From: Balanoglossus misakiensis
Lineage: Eukaryota > Animalia > Hemichordata
DNA: 64,000 nucleotides
Direction: 5' to 3'
NCBI GenBank assembly: GCA_040954595.2
Contig: CM082581.2
Span: 9,837,878 to 9,901,877, forward strand
Part shown: positions 21,797 to 56,390 of the stretch, piece by piece
Layout: each line of letters begins with the position of its first letter
Position numbering within the stretch: position 1 is the stretch's first letter
The notes under the pieces: model-generated
Database searches by the model: none
What the model was told of the DNA's origin: nothing
What the model saw: only the letters and a program-made list of their open reading frames with translations
Position numbers and translations under genes: made by a program

Positions 21797-24700
21797 TCAG
21801 AGTTTCAGTTGTACAGGTATGGAGTATTCTCCAGCAACATTCCAGTAGTCTACAGCTCGAACTCTGTAGAAACCGGCAATGGGAAATTTGTCTGAAAGAG
21901 AAATGCAGAAAAATGTTAGGTGATATTTCAGTGTCTGTGACGGTGAGTTGTAAATATCAGTGTTTGGTTGTACATGTACGTAAGGATCAGGTATGAGGGC
22001 ATGGCTCATCAAAAGCCATATAACCTCTGAATCAACCAATCCACATCAGCAAACATTAGACTGTCTTACCCTGACTCGAGCTGACTGGTGAATACAGATA
22101 CGACGTAAATATCAAATCTATATCATTGATCCTCTTGTATGGCCCCTGAGCACTCTGCGCTGAAAACTCCACCTCGAATGTCTTGATACACTTGGAGTTG
22201 ACGCAGCCATCGTCCCATATGATCAAGACATCTTGGTTAATGATGTTGTGAAGACGAACACTAGTTACCTGCAACAAACCAATATACAAGTATTCATACA
22301 TGTAGGCAAGCCAATTTTCTTTACCATGGTCTCTGGTAGGGTTTTATACAATGGGTGCACATAGTGCAACTTTCAGAAAAAATGTCCAGCTTGCCTCTAT
22401 GACTGGGCTTCAATCACAAACAGGCCTCGTGGCGTTTGCAATACAGTGTCAGAATTGTGATGAGAATGTAATGGGATAGTTTACTATTACCTGGTCAGGT
22501 GGCACTTCTGGCTTCTCACAAATGTGAACCAGTACAACCCCGGGCATGTTTAATGTTATTTGCATGTGGGCTGTACTTTGTGTGAAAGGTTTGGCATCCT
22601 GAACTCTCACTGGTTCCTGTAAAGAAACAAACGTGGCTATAACAATGTCCATTATCACACCTGTGATGCTGGACATTTTTATCCGCAGTTTCATTATCAC
22701 TATCTAGCAGTGATTATCTCCCACTGTATATCTCACCTGTTCATTTCTCAACTTTCTGAACTCGTCTTTCGTTGGGAAGACTGGTTTTCCCATCTTTTCC
22801 CACAGTGCACTTGGATTACCATTTTGATTGTCGATGAGATAAACAGCATACAACAGGTTACCTTTAAATGGGCAAACAAGACCAGAAATTCAGTTAAAAT
22901 GGCTAGCTGAAAATAGCCAAAAACTAGAATCACTTTATCTTTGATTCATATCTACGCATGAAAGGGTTAAGTTCAATGTACTTACTGTTTCTTCTGTACT
23001 TCATTTTGTCAAAAAGTGGTAAATTCAGCACAATGTTGTCCTGTCCGAAGGACGGACTCGTGTCATCACTGTTGTAGATCAGGATAGCTGCTTGCCAACT
23101 GAAATGTCCAAAAGAGGAGAGGCAGGTGAGACAATGAGGTTGCTAGGGAGGCAGCAGAGAGGGGTGAAAGGTCAAATGTCAGATGAAGATAAGCCTGACC
23201 TGTCAGCTGTGCCGTTGAAAGTCGGTATGTGCTGTGATGCGATTACTCCAATATTGCTTGTATTGCCTACAGAGGAGCCATTCACTGCAAAACCAGAACA
23301 TTCTTTCATTAGCAACTTTACACTGATAATTATTATTCTAAGGGATACATTCATTCTGAAATGCAAGTCCCAAATTATTCCTTAGAGAGTGCATGTACCA
23401 GCTAGACAGAATATCTACAGAAAATGTTAATTTTACTGTGCAGGTATAATTTACATCCATAAGTATTATACCTGCATATCATACATGTAGAATGTATTTT
23501 TATGCAGATCCTAGCTTCCGGTATCACTCTGCCAATTGACAGTGAAACATGATCTGCAAAACAGAATAGACGCATACTGTGGATTTGAAGGCAGCATCCA
23601 AAATGTACATGTACATGTACCTGTCACTGTGGCTGGGAGCTGTTCTTCGCCAAGCAAAGCCAGCAATCCCATCACGCTCAGCACAGGTTTCTTGACGAAC
23701 TGCACACTTGCTGGTTTGGTATGGTTCATCTGAAAGCGTGCCACCAGTGTCCTCTGGTCGAAGAAGTGAGGGTTGTAATTCAGGAAGCCGTTGTCGTTGC
23801 TCAAGAGTGCATAGTTGATATTGTTGCCTGGTTTGCTCAAGATGAGGTTTTGATGCTGAGCTATGATCTGTATAGTCGAGACACAAGCTGGGTTAATTCA
23901 TACTCTAAATAATACCTGATCAGTATACAGCGTGCCTTCTTAGCCAATATGATATGCCAGTCCTGGAAGTAATTGCTTTAATTCGATTCAAAGTTTCCAA
24001 AAACTAGATAGCATATCAAAATATATTTGACTAACTGTAAGTGTTGTATCAGAAACACACTATTTGCAGAGGGACAAAGAGACATATGTCACATGAATGC
24101 CAGCGTAAAGACAAGAGATTTTCATGCAAGTCTTTCCATTGGGACTTAGAAGCTCAGAAACTGTTGTTTTGTTCTTCAGCAGCCATGTTTGTGTTACCTT
24201 AGCAACTACAGCAGCATATCTGGCATCTGCCCTCCAGTCTTCACCTTTATGCCAGCCAACCAAGGGATCGCCTTCACTGTGAGTGTGAAGATAAGACAAA
24301 ATCTAATTCGGTGTTTTTTTAACATCTCCAGCATCCTATAAACCATCATTCTGCATAGAACTACTTACTCATTATAGATAGGCACACTGGTTAATCCGGG
24401 GTGTAGTGTCTGCATCCTCTGAATGGTCTCCAACTCTGTGTTCAGTAAAAATGACGATGACCCTTCACCCTAACAATGAATCAACCACCACATACATGGG
24501 TAAATATACATATACAGATACATTGGGATGTGGACTGATTGCATTGCATTGTATTGAATTGTATCCTACCATATTCCAATATGGGGGACTTGTTATATGC
24601 ATAAGACCTATTCCATTTGATTACCTTGTGGTGAATCGCAATGAAGTCAATCCTGACACCAGTCTCTCCTGTGAAGTAGTTCTTGCCACTTTCACAATGT

Positions 24701-26249
24701 TCCAGTAATGCCCAGCACCTGGGTGATTGGGGAGGGTCTTTGCAACCCCCTCCTGGACCCCCAAACTTCAACAGCGGACTTGCCGCTTTCAGGCCCTCTG
24801 AGCACGCATCGTAGTAGTTGAGAAATCCTTTGAACAGATTGATATTTCAGTTTAGGATGGAAGGTGATAAGAATGAGTTTTTGCTGAAAGCCTGCACCAC
24901 GGTGGGTTTGACATACTGCATTATTCAATATTCTATGTCACATGTATACAAAGTATGTATCCATCCACATTTTAGTGGACTAAATGTAAACAGGACTAGT
25001 ACAATTCAGTCATCTACCAGTAGTATAAATCCTGATGTCTATACCTTGTGCGGAGACATTGAGATCATCAAAATCATGCGTATCTGGTTCATTCCAAGTT
25101 TCAAAGTTCCACAGGGAGACATATCCTAGTCCATATTGATCTAGGAGAGAGAGAGTTAAACGTGACCAACTCGGGATGATTTACCTTGCACAGAAATGTT
25201 GGTGTTGTCGAAGTCCCGGTGGTCGGGCTCATTCCAAGTTTCAAAGTTCCACTGTGACACAAAACTTAAGCCGTACCGATCTGTTGGGTTGAAGCGAAAG
25301 CCCATGGATGCAGCCCATTGTGGGCTGGATCGCGTATTACCTGCACTCCCCCAACCCCATGCAATGGAATGGCCCTCTTACTCAGTTACCAACTACACCA
25401 CACACATGCCATTAACGGTGAATTGAACTGTTTGGAATTGGTGGGTGGATAAAACATGCACCTAATGAAACTACCACTTAGCAACCACAGTGGAGTGACA
25501 TATGCCAATGAGAAACTTCCATCCATGCATTAATGTTTGTACATGCCATTAAGTTTAACCTCTTGATTCCAGATCCCATTCATTTGACCTTCGCTAAATG
25601 ATGATGGTAAGTTCGATTCCCATAACTGCTCATGAAATTGACAAGTTATCTTACCAACGTCTTATTAGTGTGTCAAGTGTTACTTTGTTGAAAACAACAG
25701 AAATGGAATTCATGTGATATTTTCAGAGCTTTTGCATGCATTGCACATGAAAAAAATGCTTCTAACTGAAAAGTATGTCATATACATGTATAGAATGTGG
25801 AAGATCTTATAAAACTTTTCAGTAATTTTTGTGTTGTTTATATTTCACATGTTTTACTCACCTGTTATATTTAGCATTTTTACACTTAAACATTGTTTAA
25901 TGCTCTAACACTTTGTTTATTTTCATTCATATTTTTACAATAATATATAACTATGATGATAACCATCAGTTGAGAATTTGAAAGCATTGTGAAATTTGAC
26001 TTACCTATGTATCGCTTTGCAAGGGCTGTTACAAGGTCTTTCCATTCCCGGACTTGTTTGTCGTCATCAAATGTCCGGAAGTGGCTTGATGGATTGCCCA
26101 TGATTTCAAATCCTGGTTTAAGGTTGTTTTGCCACAGGAGATCGATGAGTTGGTCCAGCAGAGTGAAGTTGTAACTCAGGGTGCCATTTACTGTCCTGAA
26201 AAGTAGAAAGTTACCAAAGAGACTATCATGATGGTGGTGATGATGATGG

Positions 26250-26281
<32 letters not shown>

Positions 26282-26312
26282 GTGATGGTGGTGGTGGTGG
26301 TGGTGGTGGTGG

Positions 26313-26398
<86 letters not shown>

Positions 26399-26449
26399 GT
26401 GGTGGTGATGGTGGTGGTGGTGGTGGTGGTGGTGGCGATGATGGTGATG

Positions 26450-26534
<85 letters not shown>

Positions 26535-26973
26535 CATCATGGATCACTACACTAATACAAGTGACATGTACACACTTACGTCAGTTTAACCATGTCCAGT
26601 AACCAGTGAATTCTGACCTGTTCTATACCACTGTGTGGAACTGAACTGATGTAGGCCAGATTTTGTACTTCATCATCACTGAGAAAGTACTTGAAATCTT
26701 CTTGGTGAGGCTCTGGCGGACTAAAATAGAAAAAAAATCTCTGTAAACGTTAAGTACACGGGGGTACCATCTTATTATCCATGGTTTAATCATCTTCATG
26801 AAAAACAAGCGACTGTACACTTACCAGAAACCAGTACTTTTCCAGAAGTGGGTTAACTTTGCCACAGCATCACTTTGCACTGTAATATTGTACAGCGTTT
26901 TGGGTTCAACGACGAGTATGAGTGAATAACCAAGAGTTATCAACAAACTGGTGGATTTTGTTTTCGTAAACAT
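21797..26973 (-). CDS. IDUA: Alpha-L-iduronidase (GH39), about 649 aa, 14 exons per transcript with one exon present in two alternative copies
   Basis: Exons in transcript order: 26825-26973, 26580-26720, 26005-26195, [25185-25280 or 25045-25140], 24625-24827, 24369-24469, 24198-24276, 23621-23867, 23200-23284, 22986-23098, 22737-22861, 22491-22616, 22070-22268, 21797-21891. Motifs [33 protein letters not shown] (acid/base), [12 protein letters not shown] (nucleophile), LLSNDNGFL and RVRAVDYW match human IDUA. Confidence 0.95.
25045..25140 (-). CDS. IDUA: IDUA catalytic exon copy B ([32 protein letters not shown])
   Basis: 96 nt, acceptor tttaactctctctctcctag, donor CAAG|gtatag, phase 1-1, open frame. 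Confidence 0.88.
25185..25280 (-). CDS. IDUA: IDUA catalytic exon copy A ([32 protein letters not shown])
   Basis: 96 nt, acceptor ttcaacccaacag, donor CAAG|gtaaat, phase 1-1, open frame. Confidence 0.9.
26227..26533. repeat. Compound (GAT)n/(GGT)n trinucleotide microsatellite in IDUA intron 2
   Basis: About 300 bp of gat/ggt triplets. Explains the poly-I, poly-S and poly-M ORF calls. Confidence 0.97.
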
Positions 26974-47848: not shown

Positions 47849-50800
47849 ATGGATGATAAATTCACTGAGCTAACGAAGAGGCCGACGGCTGCAGACGTAG
47901 ATGTAGAAGACGCTGTTGCAAACAAGGAAGAGGAAGTTAGTAACCATGGAAACGTAAGTAAATAATGTCGTATGAGTCTCGGAACATGAGGTCGCTGTTA
48001 TCAGCACAAAAGGCATACTGCAGTATTTCTGAAAACAAGTTCCTCTTTGTCCTGTGCATCTGTGAACTTGGCTGACGTGGAACATTGTTCGTGGATTTGT
48101 CGGAAGGTATGTATGATTACCTACATATATACACAAACAATTATCTGAGATGGGGGAGTTGGTGTTATTCTGTGTTATTTCAGGGAGAGTAGAAGGCTAT
48201 GGTTATTTGAATCATGAATGCAGGTGTACCATGGGAGGGGAATATGCTAATTACCCGACACACAATTAGCATACCCCCCCCCCAACCCATGGTACACCTG
48301 CGTTTCCACAGCTAGATTGACATAATATGCTTTATGATGTTCTAGGAATCTAAACAGTTGACCACCAAGGATGAGATCAAATCCAGTGCAGCGGTCAAAT
48401 ATTCCAGTGTGGAGACTCTGGCCAATTTCTCCAAACTGAAACAAGACACCGATCTGAAGCGACCACCGGCCAATTGGTTACGGAGCTGTTCTAAATTAAC
48501 ATGGGGGACAAGCAGGACAAACTTCTCCAGGTAAAAATATAAAACAACATTGTGGACTAGTGTACGCAAGGAAAATTCGAGTCCACTGTGATGGTCAAGG
48601 GCTGTTTCAGGTGCATGCACATGGCTGTTTCAGCCCTCTGGAGCTACAGTCACTGCACTAGCCTGAACTCTGAAGCTCAGTGTATAATATTTGATCTCTT
48701 GTCTTCATCTTTAGCTTTGGAATGGCAGATTCCTGTCCAGACACTGTTGGTGAAGTGGATGTGATATCAGCATCTGAGGTTGGTCCTACAGCGCCCTCTA
48801 GAGGGCTTCTGGAAATATAGATTTTGCAATGTAGATTTTCACATGAATAAGTTCAGATTCCAAATTGTTTCTTCGTCTCAAATAATGGCTAATCAAAGTT
48901 TCTTTCACCCTTTTTATACAGAATATCAAGACTTTGTTGAAGATTCCATTCAGCAAAGCCCAAGTCAACATTGCCGTACATCGCATTGGTAGAACTCTAC
49001 TGCTAGATGAATTTGATATCTATAGACATTTACTCTCAGCACCTCAGGTATGTTGCAAATTTCTCTTACTCTTATAAGTCCTGAAACTACCCAAAATTGT
49101 TGGATATTTCAAATGAGATGTTGTTTTGCCTGTTTTTGTACTTTTCCAGAGTGGAAGAAATTGGTTGAGGAATTTCATCATCCATCAAATTCACGATGAA
49201 GGCAAAACCAAATTTACAAGGAAGAGGAAAACAAGAGATGACCTGCATAGCCGGAGTTTGCTGTCGAAATTCTTATATTACAGGTAATGTTGTAAATACT
49301 GAGTTGATACAAGATCTGAAAATCAGGGTGCACCTATCAATTTGCAGTTACTGTTAGGAATTTTGCTGTGATACTTGGTATTCAGTGATATGTCATTAAA
49401 ACAGTGAAGATTGAAGAATTGAAAAAAAATCTTCATTGAAAGAGTTGCTGAATTTTTCAATTCATCTTTCTGCCACCCAGCATTGCTTTTGATAGCGTTG
49501 ACAAAGCAGAACCGTATACAGTGGAAGAGCCGGAAGCAGCAACGCCACAGACGAGTGCAGATAGCGCAGAGAGTGAAAGTGACCCAATGGTAATGACCAG
49601 TGAGGGCACATCCGAGGTTAGTGCTTATCAAGTTTGTCTTCTGACAAAAAACAGTTTTGATGTGAGTGTGTTAAACAGAGTTTAAGCTAACATACTCTTT
49701 CTCTTGTTGCAGACGTGTCACAGTGAATTTGCTCGTCAAGTGTTGTGGCATTTTGAAGATATTCAGATGTTGATCGGCTCCGATCTGCCAATTTTTGGTG
49801 GTGGCAAATATCCATGTGTTAGTCTCAGGCTAAGGTAATAGAATATGTAAATACTCACATTTCTTATTTTAATGAGTCCACAAAGTTCACTGTGAGAAGT
49901 ATGAAAAGATAGCCAGGTTTATGCACTGTCTCTCAGATTTTTATTCCAAGTTGGCCTGAAACAGGTTGGCAGTGTCTGTAGGCTAAAATTATTATGATGT
50001 CAAGTGAACAGAGTTCTGACTGTGTTGTAAATCACTCTGTAGTATAAAATGAATGAAATGGCAAGTGTTGAAAGAAGACTGTGATTTCATTCGCACACAG
50101 AGACGAAAACAAACCGATCAACGTGTTGACGGGTCTCGACTATTGGTTGGACAACTTGATATGCAACGTGCCAGAGCTGGCCATGTGTTACCACCTCAAC
50201 GGAATCGTGCAGAGTTACGAACTCTTGAAGACGGAGGAGATCCCGCAGCTGGGAGGCTCCCAGTTTTCGCCCGGGGTAGTCAAAGACGTCGCTCAGAATG
50301 TGCTGTCGTTTATGAAGTCCAACTGCACCAAAGAAGGACATACGTACTGGCTTTTCAAAGGTGAGGCGGGTGTTGTGTTCACTGTAGTAGAGGATGTCAA
50401 AATTGTTGTTTTTGTCAGTTTACAACAGTTACAGAATGGTGTGTGCACTTTCCACATTGATTGTCCTGACTCATACAGCGTAAAGAAATGTAAAAGTCTA
50501 TCTGGATGTTTTTCTCACAGGTAATAACGACGACGTGGTAAAGCTGTACGATTTGACCAGTTTATGTTCAGAGGAAGAAACTCAAGATGCCACTGCCCAT
50601 TCATGGGATAACCCGTTCTCCATCCCAGTCGCAATGCTGCTTTACAAAGTAGCCAGGAATATGACAAAGTCCGAGACTAGTTACAAGTAAGAGAAGTTGT
50701 CCACTTTCATGGTCATTTGTATCATTTTCAAACTTACCTTACATGTATGGTTCACTTCTATGGTACTGTTTTTTTTTTTTAATTTGGAAAAAATGTAGTG

Positions 50801-53800
50801 AAAACTTCAAATTCCAGCTCTGAATTATCCAGAGTTCTGGACCAATTTTAAGTTGCAGATGAACATGTACTCATAATTATATTATAGCGTCATCAATACC
50901 AGTGAATTTTATTGACACTGTAGTGCTCATTCTTGTGTATCATATAAACTGATTCCTGTCTCCATGACAACAGGCACAGAGCTACAATCAGCAAACTGCT
51001 GAGGAACTGTTTGACGCTACTGGACAAAGATAAACATGCACAGGTAAATAATTTTGTTTAGAGTATATGTACCATGCTTTGCCTTGCCCAAGTTCAAGTT
51101 AATCAGAAAATCAATCACTATGATGTTCAAACACTAAACGGTGTCATTTGTAGATTGTAACTTCAGCCAATTACATGCTGTGTGATCTGTACATCTCCGA
51201 CGACCCGCACAAAGAGAAAAGGGATGAGGAGTCATCATCTGATGATAACACAGACAGCGGCAGTGATGGGGAGAAAGATGAGGAAAACAGCCCAGTCTCC
51301 TTGGAAGTGAAGAGTCTATCCCTGCCGTCCAAACACTGGCATTGGAGAGAGAGGGAAAACCAGTCCTCAACGGCTTCTGGTTGCCATGGAAAAACCATTG
51401 AAGAGAAATGCCAAGAAGCAATGATGCACATTGTTGCGGTAATATTTCATCAAGTTTTAGCATTATTGTTTAATTCAGCAATGTGGAATTCAAATTCGAG
51501 GCAAATCTACCGAAACCCATTTATGTGATGTAACAGTAATTTGAAGCACTTCTTTAATGTCTTCACAGGGTCTGACCACCCTAGACAGGGACATTGAAGC
51601 AAACTCAAACATGACCAGAAATTCTGGCCAGTGCGCCATCGAGTTCCCATCTGTCAATCAAGATGACCCCAAACCAGCAAGAACCAATGACAATCCGAAT
51701 GAGACTGGCAGTCAGGATGAAAGTCACAGGCTGACTGTTGCCAAGCGACAGCTGTCTCCGAGTTCGTGGCAGGGTCAACTCAAAGATTCCTTGCTCAGGA
51801 AGGCCAGGGCTGTGTGTTATATCTACGCCGATGTCCATATGAAAAAGAATGAATACAGTGAAGTGTTGAGGCATCTACATCTAGCGCTTCTCTGCCACAG
51901 TGAGTATTTACAACACACTGCAGCTGAAAGAGGCAGACGATTTTGTTGAATTTACATATATAACGGAAGTCATGTCCTCACCAAATCATATAGATAATAT
52001 ATTCTGAGTGGAACTGGCAGTATCATTCTCAGCTCTCAAAATTTCTGTAATGTTTTCATCTCCACTGTCAAATTAACCCTGCCCCCCTTTTCTAGGTGCT
52101 GTTAGCAGCTTTACGCCTCTTCATTCCGACTCGCAATCCAAAGACGAGGGCTTGCTCAGTGCTATCCTCAGATTGTGCGGTGATCTTCACATCATGCTTG
52201 CCGGAGACCCAGACAGCATGTCCAAATGCAAACTCGAGTTCCTGCAGCAAACCAGTGAGGAAAAGATCATCATTGAAAGTGTGAAGAAGGAAGTTAGTTT
52301 TAACAGTGAGTCTTGTCTCTTCTGTTGGTTTTGTTTTCATGTGTGTGAAAGAGGGCTTTTTCCTGGTTGCTTGTTGATTCCGACATTTTGATTATGGGTA
52401 TAAAAGTGTTGATAAAAACAATTACATTCATTTCAAAATGAACCTTTTTATTTCAAAACACACAGATTTTCAGTGGGCTCTGACTTGCGGCGAAGAGGTC
52501 AGTGACTGCCTGCTTACAAGTATCGGTTGCTATGAGGGAGCGCTGGACTTGGCAACGGGTGAAGACGATGCAGAGTACATGATCAACACCACACGCAGAC
52601 TTGGCAATGCCAGGAATGAACTCGGCAAACAGTATATGACAGCCGCAGTGGAGTTAGCTGACTCACAAGCACAAGGTATAGTCAGCGTTATCTGCATGTT
52701 ATCCAAAAGAGTCAAAACTCACATTTTTTTTCAGAGTGCCGTACAGTTACTGTTGTTTCGTACGTGTGAGCAATTATTCTAGTGATATGACCATCACTGT
52801 CGCTTTGCATAGTGAAAGTGATTTGTAATTTGTTTCTCCAACAAGAAGAAAGAAAAAAATGCTCTTATGAAGAACCATTGGTACCTTCTGCCTGATTGGC
52901 TGTAATACACAGAAATGTACCCAATCAGGTAGAGGGTAATAAAACAGCAAATGAAACCTGAAATATGTGACTGGATAAACTTTTCCATCTCTAATATCTG
53001 TTTTTTCCTTCTTTTCCCAAGTTGAAGTCCCGACCACTGCTGAACAGACGCTGTGGAAGAAGAGCTACGAGCAGTTTAACAGAGCCTTGGCTTCATTTGA
53101 AGCCACCAGTGATAATGTCAACCAGGCATTGGTCAACTGCAATGCAGGTCGCTTGATGAGAATATGTGCACAGGCCTACAACTCGGGCAAATTTAGTCAA
53201 CAGGAGAGGTATTACTTCAACAAGGTAAGTCTTTGCCGCGTGTGTTACATGCAAACTTTACAGTCCATTCCAGACACAAACACACTTATTCTGAATGCAC
53301 ACTTGCAAATACATGGCAGAGTATGTGCTAATCTATGTTATTTCTGTCACACAGACATTTTTTTTCTGGCTTACAGTTTGTAAAATGCTAAACCGCATCA
53401 TGTCAGTAATTGTGAATAGAAACATAGTTGAACATAGAAAACCTGTAAAAACCAGCAGCTGGGATCTTTTCCAGATAAAACTGTTATTGTTTTTTTTTTT
53501 CGTTGTGGTTGTCAGGCTATAGATCACTACCACACTGCACTGCGACAGCTCGGTGACAGGAATATGTCATTGAGAGAGTCGATCACTTGGGAGCTGTCTA
53601 CAACTTACTTCACCATGGCAACGCTATTGCAGGACAATGCGCCATTGACTGATATGGCTGAAGAACAGGTGAGTTGTTTGGTGATCGAGTTGAGTTGTAA
53701 CCCAAATGGCTGATTTATGTGAATTTGATCAAAACGGAAATTGAATAACAGAGAATCAGCGCTATAGTAGTTATGAAGGCTGTACAGCGCCACCAAACAA

Positions 53801-56390
53801 AGTTGGAGAGTTCTTTTGTTTATTATGTGTCATTATATTTATTTTGTGTCATTAAAGGTGGAAAAGGACATCAAGGAATACATGATGAAAGCGCTGAAGT
53901 ATTGCGAGGCGGAGGAGTCCTCACCGCGACAATCCATTGTACAGTATAGAGCTGCCACAGTTCATCATAGACTGGCGTCTATGCATCATAATTCCTACAG
54001 GAACCAGGTATGAGACCTACATTCTCTCACATTTCCTGCACAACACGACACCATAATTCCCATAAATATCCCATGATGCACAACGGTTTCATAGAAATCA
54101 AAGTTGTTTCCCCAGAATGCCTCGTGAGTGCCACATCAACAGGTTATCATAACTCCTCATGAAAATTACCCCGAAATAATGTCAAAAGTGAGCTACTCTA
54201 TCCCTTGAACTGTATTGACATGCATGTCAGAAATGTCTGACTCTGAGCCGAATGGATATTTCCAGGGTCTTGAGATATATCTGGCATGTTTCAGTTCTTG
54301 TCTCTGTTTATGCCAGGTTTACTGCATTACCCTAATTTGATATCTCCTGTATATATTGGTGTGTGCCTGTTACACCATCTTTTGTTATGGTCAAGATGTT
54401 ATAGCGCCATCAGTGGCCAGTGGAAGACAGTTCAGTGAGTCCCCCCACCCCAAGATGTAAAAATCAGCACCTTTTCCATTTATTCTAGATCAATGAACAG
54501 AAGAAAAAACACAGTAGAACGTTAGCAGATTTGCACTATGGGAAGGCTTTGAAGCTGTTCCAAGAATTGGATCGTCCCTCCGAGCTACTGCGAATCTTGC
54601 TAGAAAGAGTCGCAATGTGTGAACATCAGCTCAACAGTAAGTGAATTAATTTTTTGTAACATTCTTCATTTGTTCATAATTCTAGAAAAAAGTGTCATGA
54701 CGTATAATATACATATGTTGAGTACCACTGACTATATGTCAGCCAGGCAGACTCATAACAGCCATTACTGTGTGCTAGCAATTTCCCACCCTTTCAAGGT
54801 CATGCTGGGGTCACGAAGACAGCCAACAGTAGCAGTCTTTACCCCCGCAAACAAAATATTTGTAAATGTGATAATTCAGTCTGACAGTCTTCAGAGAGTT
54901 GGGAGCTGGCTGAGTGTGCTGAGTGACTATCCGGTTATCAACCTCTAATGTCTCGTGGAAGATCAACACTTGACATGTTTTCTGCTCTTTAAGAGGTGAC
55001 TGACTGTTTTACGGAGGAATTTGAAAACACGGAACAAACACAGAAGTGGTTCACCTGCCCCTTCTGGGTCAGACACTTCCCTGGGGGATGCTTCTGAAAA
55101 GGAAATTGCTACTTCAGTGACATCAAATTTAATTACCTTGAAAGAATTTTATCACTGTTCCAATATTTATTGGTGTTTGGCGTGTATCACTATCAGAGAC
55201 TAGGAAAAATGTGCTGTATTTCCTGAGGATCAATCATACAAAACCACATTTTCTGAGCAGAAGGTCACACGGCCAATAAATTGTGCCAATTGCAGGCAAA
55301 CCTGTCAAATTGTCACAATGTAGCGCAGCCTTGCCTACCACCTGCACGAGTGGTGTCCAAGTATCAAAGTATCCAGAACAAGGGCCGGGGCAGGGTCCCC
55401 ACACCTATCATACTACCTGGTAAATAGAGAATTTCCGTTTCAATTGTACACAGTGGTATACCTTATACGGCCAAACATATAAATATCTTCAAGTTACACC
55501 AAAGCAAACAAACAAACACAGAAGCCAAACAGAGTGGGGAGAATGACCCCAAAATATGCGGTTTGACCTCTCTGCTCCATCCCTTCCCAGGTCAGACGGG
55601 AAGTGGCGCCAAGATCAAAACTCTGCAAACAGCGCTGGATTTCCTGCTGCAGAGCAAACAGTCCTTGGAGGGAATCTGTCGCGACTTCTCCGAGTCTCTC
55701 AATGAAGATCCTGTCCGAAGCCGCTTGTTGAGTGCCACGGCAGAAACCAAAGTAAACGAAGCTTTAGAAAAGACCGAGACAGACAAACATGAGGAGGAGA
55801 ACGCTAATAATCTTCGGAAGAAACAGGACACTGAAGTTGTCCCGGATAGTCCGGGGAGAAATAAGGAAAATAATTCTGATTTCAAAGAGAAAAAAATCAA
55901 CAGTGGGGATAATGCCCGTGATCCCGATAATGCAGATGATATTCAAGACTCGGATAAGAATGACAAACAGTGTATAACCAAAGAACTGGAAGAGATAGAG
56001 AACTTAGTGTCAATACTACAGTCAAGATTACAGTTTATTTTGTTTCATCATGTTAAGTTACACTCCACCAAGAAAGGGTAAGTCTGTGAAGTTGTATCCA
56101 TTTACATACATGTACATGTACCTAAGTCTAATACCTAGCTGCATTTTGTCCGCTTTGCTTCAAAACTGAACCCAACTTGATACTAGACTAACATCTACAA
56201 GCCACCTGTCATGATCTTTTGAGATTTCTTAATATTCTTGTTCGTTTACTTCTCCAGGGATCAGAGCAAATTATCAAAGTACAAGAGGATGTACGCAGTT
56301 GCCTTGTCGAGTGTGAAGGCCGAAGGAAACCTGGCAATGACCTTGCTTGATACAGTGGAGCGAATAACGGAGATATGGGTCAGGTCATGA
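47849..56390 (+). CDS. EDRF1: Erythroid differentiation regulatory factor 1 homologue, 20 coding exons
   Basis: Exons 47849-47953, 48346-48530, 48715-48778, 48922-49047, 49150-49283, 49481-49616, 49713-49834, 50101-50360, 50521-50686, 50974-51043, 51154-51438, 51569-51899, 52096-52305, 52466-52675, 53022-53224, 53516-53668, 53858-54007, 54489-54636, 55591-56077, 56258-56390. Motifs TDLKRPPANWLR, SFGMA, ENIKTLLKIP, VHRIGRTLLLDE, MLIGSDLPIFGGG, INVLTGLDYWLDNLICNVPEL and SNCTKEGHTYWLFKG match EDRF1. Confidence 0.93.

What the first reader, a model, noticed from the sequence alone, without database searches (positions are those of the whole stretch)
25045..25280. IDUA has two tandem, apparently mutually exclusive exons encoding the catalytic acid/base glutamate
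Seen: two 96-nt phase-1/1 exons, both open, both with AG/GT ends and both encoding [10 protein letters not shown]. They share an identical 24-nt core but differ in the flanks ([28 protein letters not shown]; human: EPD-HH-DFDNVS), and both keep an N-glycosylation sequon. The spacer is only 44 nt (gtaaatcatcccgagttggtcacgtttaactctctctctcctag), with a branch-like TTTAAC about 29 nt from the donor. The shortest other intron I modelled in this window is 92 nt. Established: the NEP glutamate is the acid/base catalyst of GH39/clan GH-A enzymes, and a too-short donor-to-branch distance enforces mutual exclusion (alpha-tropomyosin exons 2/3). Inference: one gene makes two iduronidases differing in residues beside the catalytic Glu, possibly tuned to differently sulfated glycosaminoglycans or pH. 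I know of no described mutually exclusive catalytic exon in IDUA.
Basis: partly seen in the sequence, partly recalled or inferred. Interest (0 to 1): 0.85.

Follow-up and report, generated by a model that had tools for sequence, protein, structure and literature searches.

The report
Swappable catalytic exon in acorn-worm iduronidase
The gene for the sugar-chain-degrading lysosomal enzyme alpha-L-iduronidase in this worm (likely an acorn worm) carries two intact side-by-side copies of the exon holding one of its two catalytic glutamates, and they are likely spliced in one at a time, giving two enzyme forms that differ in the loop next to the active site and are predicted, untested, to differ modestly in substrate handling.

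Summary
Observation confirmed. The minus-strand IDUA gene has two open 96-nt phase-1/1 exons (A 25280-25185, B 25140-25045), 44 nt apart, both encoding [10 protein letters not shown]; either gives a 649-aa protein without stops. Nearest relatives are acorn worms. New evidence: Ptychodera flava RefSeq isoforms X1 and X2 (both 655 aa) differ at only 8 residues, all inside this exon; X1 has A's H-R signature, X2 has B's x-H...D signature, and Glandiceps carries a B-type exon. Synonymous sites between A and B are saturated while 21 of 31 residues are kept, so both copies are old and under purifying selection. Mutually exclusive splicing is therefore likely (about 0.85); no reads could be laid. Steric exclusion by the 44-nt intron is inferred: other IDUA introns are 92-724 nt, and co-inclusion would stay in frame. 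Functional specialisation is untested: both signatures occur in vertebrate IDUAs, and the sequon is at 192, not human 190, and missing from other B-type exons. A known kind of splicing in a gene for which my searches found no description. Interest 0.5.

The parts
25185..25280 (-). Exon copy A (first in transcript order), 96 nt, phase 1/1, human IDUA residues 165-197; carries N181-E182, H185-R186, sequon at 192
   Evidence: matches P. flava isoform X1 signature
25141..25184 (-). 44-nt GT-AG spacer between the copies; branch-like TTTAAC at 25160-25155 (A at 25156, 29 nt from the donor), then a CT-rich tract; its TAA is the in-frame stop if the spacer is retained
25045..25140 (-). Exon copy B, 96 nt, phase 1/1; carries N181-E182, T185-H186, D190, sequon at 192
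   Evidence: matches P. flava isoform X2 and Glandiceps signature
25088..25111 (-). Core of B that is identical in A (25251-25228 region): 0 of 5 synonymous-capable codons differ here against 13 of 14 outside; possible short gene-conversion tract or RNA-level constraint
   Evidence: exact runs test p = 0.007, region chosen after seeing the data
25283..25355 (-). Predicted stem-loop that would cover the pyrimidine tract of exon A's acceptor; not significant against shuffles
   Evidence: z -1.35, 17 of 200 shuffles fold as well; mean unpaired 0.18 vs 0.14-0.77 at 12 other acceptors
26005..26195 (-). Constitutive exon upstream of the pair (donor at 26004, phase 1)
24625..24827 (-). Constitutive exon downstream of the pair (human residues 198-264)
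21797..26973 (-). Whole IDUA coding region: 15 coding exons counting both copies; 649 aa with A or with B; ATG at 26973 followed by a hydrophobic signal-peptide-like stretch; nucleophile E299 codon follows the 24369/24276 junction

Best explanation
This IDUA gene holds two intact tandem copies of the exon that encodes catalytic Glu182, and they likely form an old mutually exclusive pair in which the 44-nt spacer is predicted to be too short to splice, so each mRNA would carry A or B and yield one of two likely active iduronidases that differ in the loop right after the catalytic residue. Shown: anatomy, open frames, saturation of synonymous sites with conserved protein, and matching A- and B-type isoforms in the P. 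flava annotation. Inferred: (1) exclusive use in this species (about 0.85); (2) steric block between exon A's donor and exon B's branch point as the mechanism (about 0.8 if exclusive), since co-inclusion stays in frame and would escape nonsense-mediated decay, whereas retaining the spacer meets a stop; (3) one duplication in an enteropneust ancestor (about 0.8); (4) both copies are kept because residues 185-195 (H-R vs x-H, D190, the nearby glycan site) modestly change how the sugar next to iduronate is bound, or change glycosylation and stability (about 0.55).
For: A and B each give a 649-aa stop-free protein with H91, N181, E182, K264, E299, G305, W306 in place and the D349/N350/R363/N372 region conserved. 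P. flava XP_070539994.1 (X1) and XP_070539995.1 (X2) are both 655 aa and differ at 8 positions, all in residues 174-195; that cluster has 2 members and no third P. flava form appeared among the 120 listed of 919 hits. A shares H185-R186 with X1 (4 of 209 distinct outgroup segments have it); B shares D190 with X2 and Glandiceps (2 of 209). Tree of 31 columns: (A, X1) 83/72 and (B, X2, Glandiceps) 85/86. pS about 1.0 vs pN 0.18 between A and B; 19 of 31 third positions differ vs 6 and 7 first and second. Spacer 44 nt vs 92-724 nt for 13 other IDUA introns; threshold under 50 nt in PMC5740500 and PMC7969005 (passages). Outgroups show one copy: 13 of 13 metagenome loci have one motif, 3 of them with both flanking exons in view; Asterias, Acanthaster and Branchiostoma isoforms do not vary here. 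A docking study places His185 against the aglycone and a dermatan tetrasaccharide (PMC10794756, passages and table).
Against: No RNA junctions seen for this species, and no P. flava or Glandiceps DNA seen, so exon order and spacer length outside this window are unknown. No tree branch is starred and AU tests do not reject species-wise duplication (p 0.25 for A+B, 0.17 for X1+X2). Glandiceps has only one annotated form. The N-terminal half of X1 resembles B more than A (overall identity A-X1 22, B-X1 23 of 31), which needs conversion or convergence. Both signatures occur in vertebrate IDUAs, and H185 is N in 119 of 209 outgroup segments (fish-heavy set), so the differences may be tolerated rather than adaptive. 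The His185 contact is docking only. The 50-nt threshold comes from vertebrate work; the minimum intron size of acorn worms was not measured.
Confidence: 0.6

Rival explanations
1. The pair is spliced exclusively, but the two enzymes are functionally equivalent; both copies persist because each is the one selected in some tissue or stage, and the residue differences are tolerated drift.
For: A-like and B-like motifs both occur in vertebrate IDUAs; positions 185, 186, 190-195 vary widely across 209 outgroup segments; N181, E182, D187, F188, D189 are the same in both copies.
Against: H185-R186 and D190 are kept copy-specifically across species whose IDUAs are only 82% and 77% identical, and homogenisation in this window is confined to the invariant motif.
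Confidence: 0.25
2. Only one copy is used in this species; the other is a silent or rarely used leftover.
For: No RNA could be examined; B's donor (AAG|GTATAG) is weak, A's acceptor lies in a predicted stem; Glandiceps has one annotated form.
Against: Both copies keep frame, length, splice dinucleotides and 21 of 31 residues despite saturated synonymous sites; P. flava annotates both types.
Confidence: 0.07
3. Both exons are spliced together, giving a protein with a 32-residue tandem repeat.
For: A+B stays in frame without a stop; the spacer has GT, AG, a branch-like motif and a pyrimidine tract; some animals splice introns of this size (recalled).
Against: The exon encodes the end of a barrel helix, the strand before the catalytic Glu and the following loop (model of P. 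flava X1, pLDDT 87-98 over residues 161-200), so a repeat would be expected to disturb the barrel; only 1 of 351 motif-bearing proteins held has the motif twice, a partial paddlefish model with an exact half-exon repeat; P. flava forms carry one copy each.
Confidence: 0.04
4. Assembly artefact (two haplotypes or reads joined in tandem).
For: No raw DNA reads were checked.
Against: The copies differ at 32 of 96 nt, have unrelated flanks, and each has a counterpart in another species.
Confidence: 0.02

Closest known systems
Alpha-L-iduronidase (IDUA, GH39; human structures 4MJ2/4MJ4, 3W81, 4KGJ)
   Same: Sequence and catalytic residues conserved; the model of P. flava X1 matches human IDUA at TM 0.87-0.90, E about 1e-84; the exon spans the same residues as the single exon seen in outgroup loci.
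   Different: Human, echinoderm and amphioxus proteins examined show one version of this segment; here there are two. Sequon at 192 instead of 190.
Homologous mutually exclusive exons enforced by donor-to-branch-point proximity (alpha-tropomyosin exons 2/3, recalled; OGDH 4a/4b, PMC7969005; 57 human clusters, 9%, PMC5740500)
   Same: Tandem equal-length homologous exons, in frame if joined, donor-to-branch distance under 50 nt (here at most 44, likely 29).
   Different: In OGDH the block comes from distant branch points in a longer intron; here the whole intron is short. The branch point is predicted, not mapped.
Mutually exclusive exons at enzyme active sites (9 events affecting catalytic sites in PMC7954323, e.g. 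fly CG42249; PKM; ketohexokinase A/C, recalled)
   Same: The switched exon forms part of the active site.
   Different: Here the catalytic residue itself is kept in both copies and its neighbours change; the paper's main text has 0 occurrences of 'iduronidase' or 'hydrolase' (supplements not read).
Ptychodera flava RefSeq IDUA-like isoforms X1/X2 (XP_070539994.1, XP_070539995.1)
   Same: Two equal-length forms that differ only inside this exon, with A- and B-type signatures.
   Different: Automatic annotation only; X2 lacks the sequon that B has; genomic layout not seen.

Membership tests
IDUA (GH39) | GH39 profile and IDUA fold | tested here: met
   Pfam PF01229 above cut-off for A, B and the next exon; Foldseek of the P. 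flava X1 model to human IDUA (the model is of the relative, not of the window protein)
IDUA (GH39) | Catalytic E182 and E299 and iduronate-binding residues | tested here: met
   H91, N181, E182, K264, E299, G305, W306 with either exon; SNDN, QRT and the N372 sequon
IDUA (GH39) | Iduronidase activity | not testable with these tools
   needs an assay
Homologous mutually exclusive exons | Tandem homologous exons of like length and phase in one gene | tested here: met
Homologous mutually exclusive exons | Both copies intact and under purifying selection | tested here: met
   pS about 1.0, pN 0.18; no stops
Homologous mutually exclusive exons | Transcripts with either exon and not both | tested here: inconclusive
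   No RNA run listed for this DNA; indirect support from P. flava X1/X2
Homologous mutually exclusive exons | Pair conserved in relatives | tested here: inconclusive
   Both types in P. flava proteins, B type in Glandiceps; tree favours but does not prove one duplication; no relative's DNA seen
Steric-interference MXE | Donor-to-branch distance under about 50 nt | tested here: met
   Any branch point inside the 44-nt spacer is under 50 nt from the donor (threshold)
Steric-interference MXE | Branch point mapped and exclusion lost when the spacer is lengthened | not testable with these tools
   needs lariat sequencing and a minigene
Frame-shift/NMD-enforced MXE | Co-inclusion shifts the frame | tested here: not met
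   A+B is 192 nt, no stop
Docking-site/selector MXE (competing RNA structures) | One intronic site pairing with a selector beside each exon | tested here: inconclusive
   No such pair of helices stood out among 26 inverted repeats in 24600-26220; conservation could not be tested

The most novel reading that the evidence does not exclude
Acorn worms have for hundreds of millions of years made two iduronidases from one gene by regulated switching of the catalytic exon, with copy-specific residues at the +1 subsite (H185-R186 vs x185-H186/D190) and a switchable glycan site giving different preference for sulfation patterns of dermatan and heparan sulfate; gene conversion is tolerated only over the invariant catalytic motif.
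Probability: 0.3. Interest if true: 0.72.

Novelty: new member of a known kind. Interest (0 to 1): 0.5.

Why it matters
Switch exons that carry a catalytic residue are uncommon (9 events touching catalytic sites in PMC7954323), and my searches found no description for IDUA, the enzyme deficient in MPS I. If the forms differ, they are a natural experiment on residues 185-195 beside Glu182, whose role in binding the neighbouring sulfated sugar is so far backed here only by docking. The 44-nt intron is also a compact test of steric exclusion in an invertebrate deuterostome. If the forms behave alike, it is a tidy but ordinary lineage-specific exon duplication.

Tried and rejected
No genome is held for this window, so genome-wide intron sizes were not measured. 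RNA search for 21800-26210: no RNA holder listed; no reads were laid. A tandem-core pattern found 0 stretches in metagenome contigs (exact matches, spacing 124-154 nt only). Searches for more hemichordate proteins gave only P. flava and G. talaboti; no Saccoglossus or Schizocardium protein appeared among listed hits, which is no evidence of absence (best 120 of 919, 23 of 23, best 150 of 159 listed). P0226, the only protein with two matched motif copies, is a partial paddlefish model with an exact repeat of the first half of the exon and no DFD tail; rejected as a parallel case. Whole-region folding is not unusual (z 0.25); the stem over A's acceptor is not significant. NMD-based exclusion rejected. 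Earlier scan notes: nothing by sequence or by words. Literature: 'iduronidase' + 'mutually exclusive exons' 2 papers: PMC9146820 uses the phrase generically (passages), PMC12665793 seen in listing only; 'iduronidase' + 'hemichordat' 0 papers; top 40 of 931 hemichordate papers have 0 occurrences of 'iduronidase'; hemichordate dermatan sulfate search gave 3 papers, listing only, none on acorn-worm glycans by title. The library lacks most subscription papers, the original crystal-structure papers were not read, and no supplements were read; genome-paper supplements could list this event. In one search the reference P0238 is out of register after about residue 325, so positions 349-374 were taken instead.

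Full report
Observation. On the minus strand, 25280-25185 (A) and 25140-25045 (B) are 96-nt exons with AG before and GT after, separated by 44 nt. They share 64 of 96 nt and a 24-nt identical core, and translate as [31 protein letters not shown] and [31 protein letters not shown]. The core pattern occurs twice in the window against 0.01 expected. Both match human IDUA 166-196 and Pfam GH39. E182 and E299 are named the catalytic residues in PMC13654827 and PMC10794756 (passages), and E182K leaves 0.001-0.1% activity (PMC7711455, passages); that E182 is the acid/base is recalled.

The gene. tblastn with relatives and splice-site reading give 15 coding exons from 26973 to 21797, counting both copies. 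With A or with B the frame is 649 aa without stops, and H91, N181, E182, K264, E299, G305 and W306 are in place; the segment with D349, N350, R363 and the N372 sequon is conserved. The 13 other introns are 92-724 nt. Joining A and B keeps the frame (192 nt), skipping both also keeps it but drops the catalytic Glu, and retaining the spacer meets a TAA. So decay of frame-shifted mRNA cannot be what keeps the exons apart.

Organism and relatives. The best hits are acorn worms: Glandiceps talaboti and Ptychodera flava; the window protein is about 82% identical to P. flava and 77% to Glandiceps over 590 residues. P. flava has two RefSeq isoforms, X1 and X2, both 655 aa, which differ at 8 positions, all between residues 174 and 195, inside this exon. 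X1 reads [13 protein letters not shown], like A; X2 reads EPD-NH-DFD-DVDFS, like B; the single Glandiceps model reads EPD-SH-DFD-DIHFT, also B-like. No P. flava form with both copies was seen (2-member cluster; 120 listed of 919 hits). That RefSeq alternative isoforms normally rest on transcript alignments is recalled, not checked. I did not see the DNA of either relative.

One duplication or several. Among 209 distinct segments from 283 other proteins (those that fit the motif without gaps; fish-heavy), H185-R186 occurs 4 times and D190 twice, so finding one H-R copy and one D190 copy in both species points to shared descent. The best tree of 21 rows and 31 columns groups A with X1 (83/72) and B with X2 and Glandiceps (85/86), with B nearest X2 as the whole-protein identities predict; no branch is starred, and AU tests do not reject A+B (p 0.25) or X1+X2 (p 0.17) as clades. 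Because A keeps states shared with echinoderms and amphioxus (H185, sequon at 192) while Glandiceps shows B's derived states, I infer a duplication before the Ptychoderidae-Spengelidae split. PMC11175523 dates that split at over 370 million years, citing earlier work, while PMC4729200 gives 373 Ma for the deeper harrimaniid-ptychoderid split (passages); hundreds of millions of years is the safe reading. Outside acorn worms the exon looks single: each of 13 metagenome loci has one motif, 6 of them show the same exon boundaries and 3 have both flanking exons in view (two of the three are near-identical loci); isoforms of Asterias, Acanthaster and Branchiostoma do not vary here; 1 of 351 motif-bearing proteins held repeats the motif, and it looks like a model artefact.

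Selection. Between A and B, synonymous differences per site are about 1.0 and non-synonymous 0.18; 19 of 31 third positions differ against 6 first and 7 second; GC3 is 0.65 in A and 0.32 in B. Of 19 codons with the same residue and synonymous freedom, 13 of 14 outside the core differ and 0 of 5 inside (runs test p 0.007, region picked after seeing it). The copies are old, both kept intact, and the invariant motif was likely homogenised by a short conversion or is constrained at RNA level. P. flava X1 and X2 are also alike in their first half, which fits the same process but was not testable on DNA.

Mechanism. A 44-nt intron puts any internal branch point under 50 nt from A's donor; the best motif, TTTAAC, gives 29 nt. 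A distance under about 50 nt is the quoted steric threshold (PMC5740500: 57 clusters, 9%; PMC7969005; passages). I therefore infer that assembly on A's donor and on B's branch point exclude each other. What chooses A or B is unknown; a predicted stem over A's pyrimidine tract is a lead only (z -1.35; one constitutive acceptor is as paired), and no docking/selector pair stood out.

Function. A model of P. flava X1 (mean pLDDT 91; TM 0.87-0.90 to human IDUA) shows the exon as the end of a helix, the strand before E182 and the following loop. The copy-specific residues lie mostly in that loop. A docking study has His185 contacting the aglycone of 4MU-iduronide and a dermatan tetrasaccharide, and N190 is a human glycosylation site. 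Against a large effect: H185 is N in 119 of 209 outgroup segments, a snake IDUA has the A motif and sturgeon IDUAs a B-like one, and the sequon is at 192 in A, B and X1 but absent in X2 and Glandiceps. Both forms are likely active; a modest difference is my best guess, equivalence the main rival; pH or sulfation tuning is untested.

Comparison and novelty. It works like sterically enforced homologous mutually exclusive exons, a known kind; switch exons at catalytic sites are known but few (9 events, PMC7954323, passages). Searches for iduronidase with mutually exclusive exons and with hemichordates found no description; the event exists only as automatic P. flava isoforms. The library is incomplete and no supplements were read. 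Direct RNA evidence for this species is missing (no evidence either way).

Verdict. Real, conserved, likely mutually exclusive catalytic exon pair in acorn-worm IDUA; new member of a known kind; interest 0.5, rising to about 0.7 if the two enzymes differ in substrate preference (probability about 0.3).

Noticed in passing
window 36951-32730 (-): Class C GPCR gene upstream of IDUA on the same strand (ANF_receptor, NCD3G, 7tm_3), with a 713-aa open stretch and a second exon; its intron holds TCAT/CCAA-type microsatellites.
   Followed up: partly
window about 50072-56078 (+): Exons of an EDRF1-like gene (EDRF1_N and TPR_EDRF1 hits).
   Followed up: partly
window 26230-26540: Long CAT/CAC trinucleotide repeat in IDUA intron 2, open as poly-His in frame with the next exon on the minus strand; likely just a microsatellite.
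   Followed up: no
window 25045-25280 (-): Opposite codon bias in the two copies: GC3 0.65 in A, 0.32 in B, 0.52 for the gene; more synonymous codons differ than saturation alone would suggest. Could reflect different splicing signals.
   Followed up: partly
window 25341-25336 (-): A donor-like AG|GTAATA lies 60 nt upstream of exon A's acceptor, inside the predicted stem.
   Followed up: no
P0003 (S. purpuratus IDUA, 736 aa): The sea-urchin model repeats parts of the next exon ([13 protein letters not shown]...KLGGPADSC) up to three times: either a separate tandem duplication of the neighbouring exon or a model error.
   Followed up: no
L004, L007: Intronless full-length animal-type IDUA genes in metagenome contigs.
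   Followed up: no
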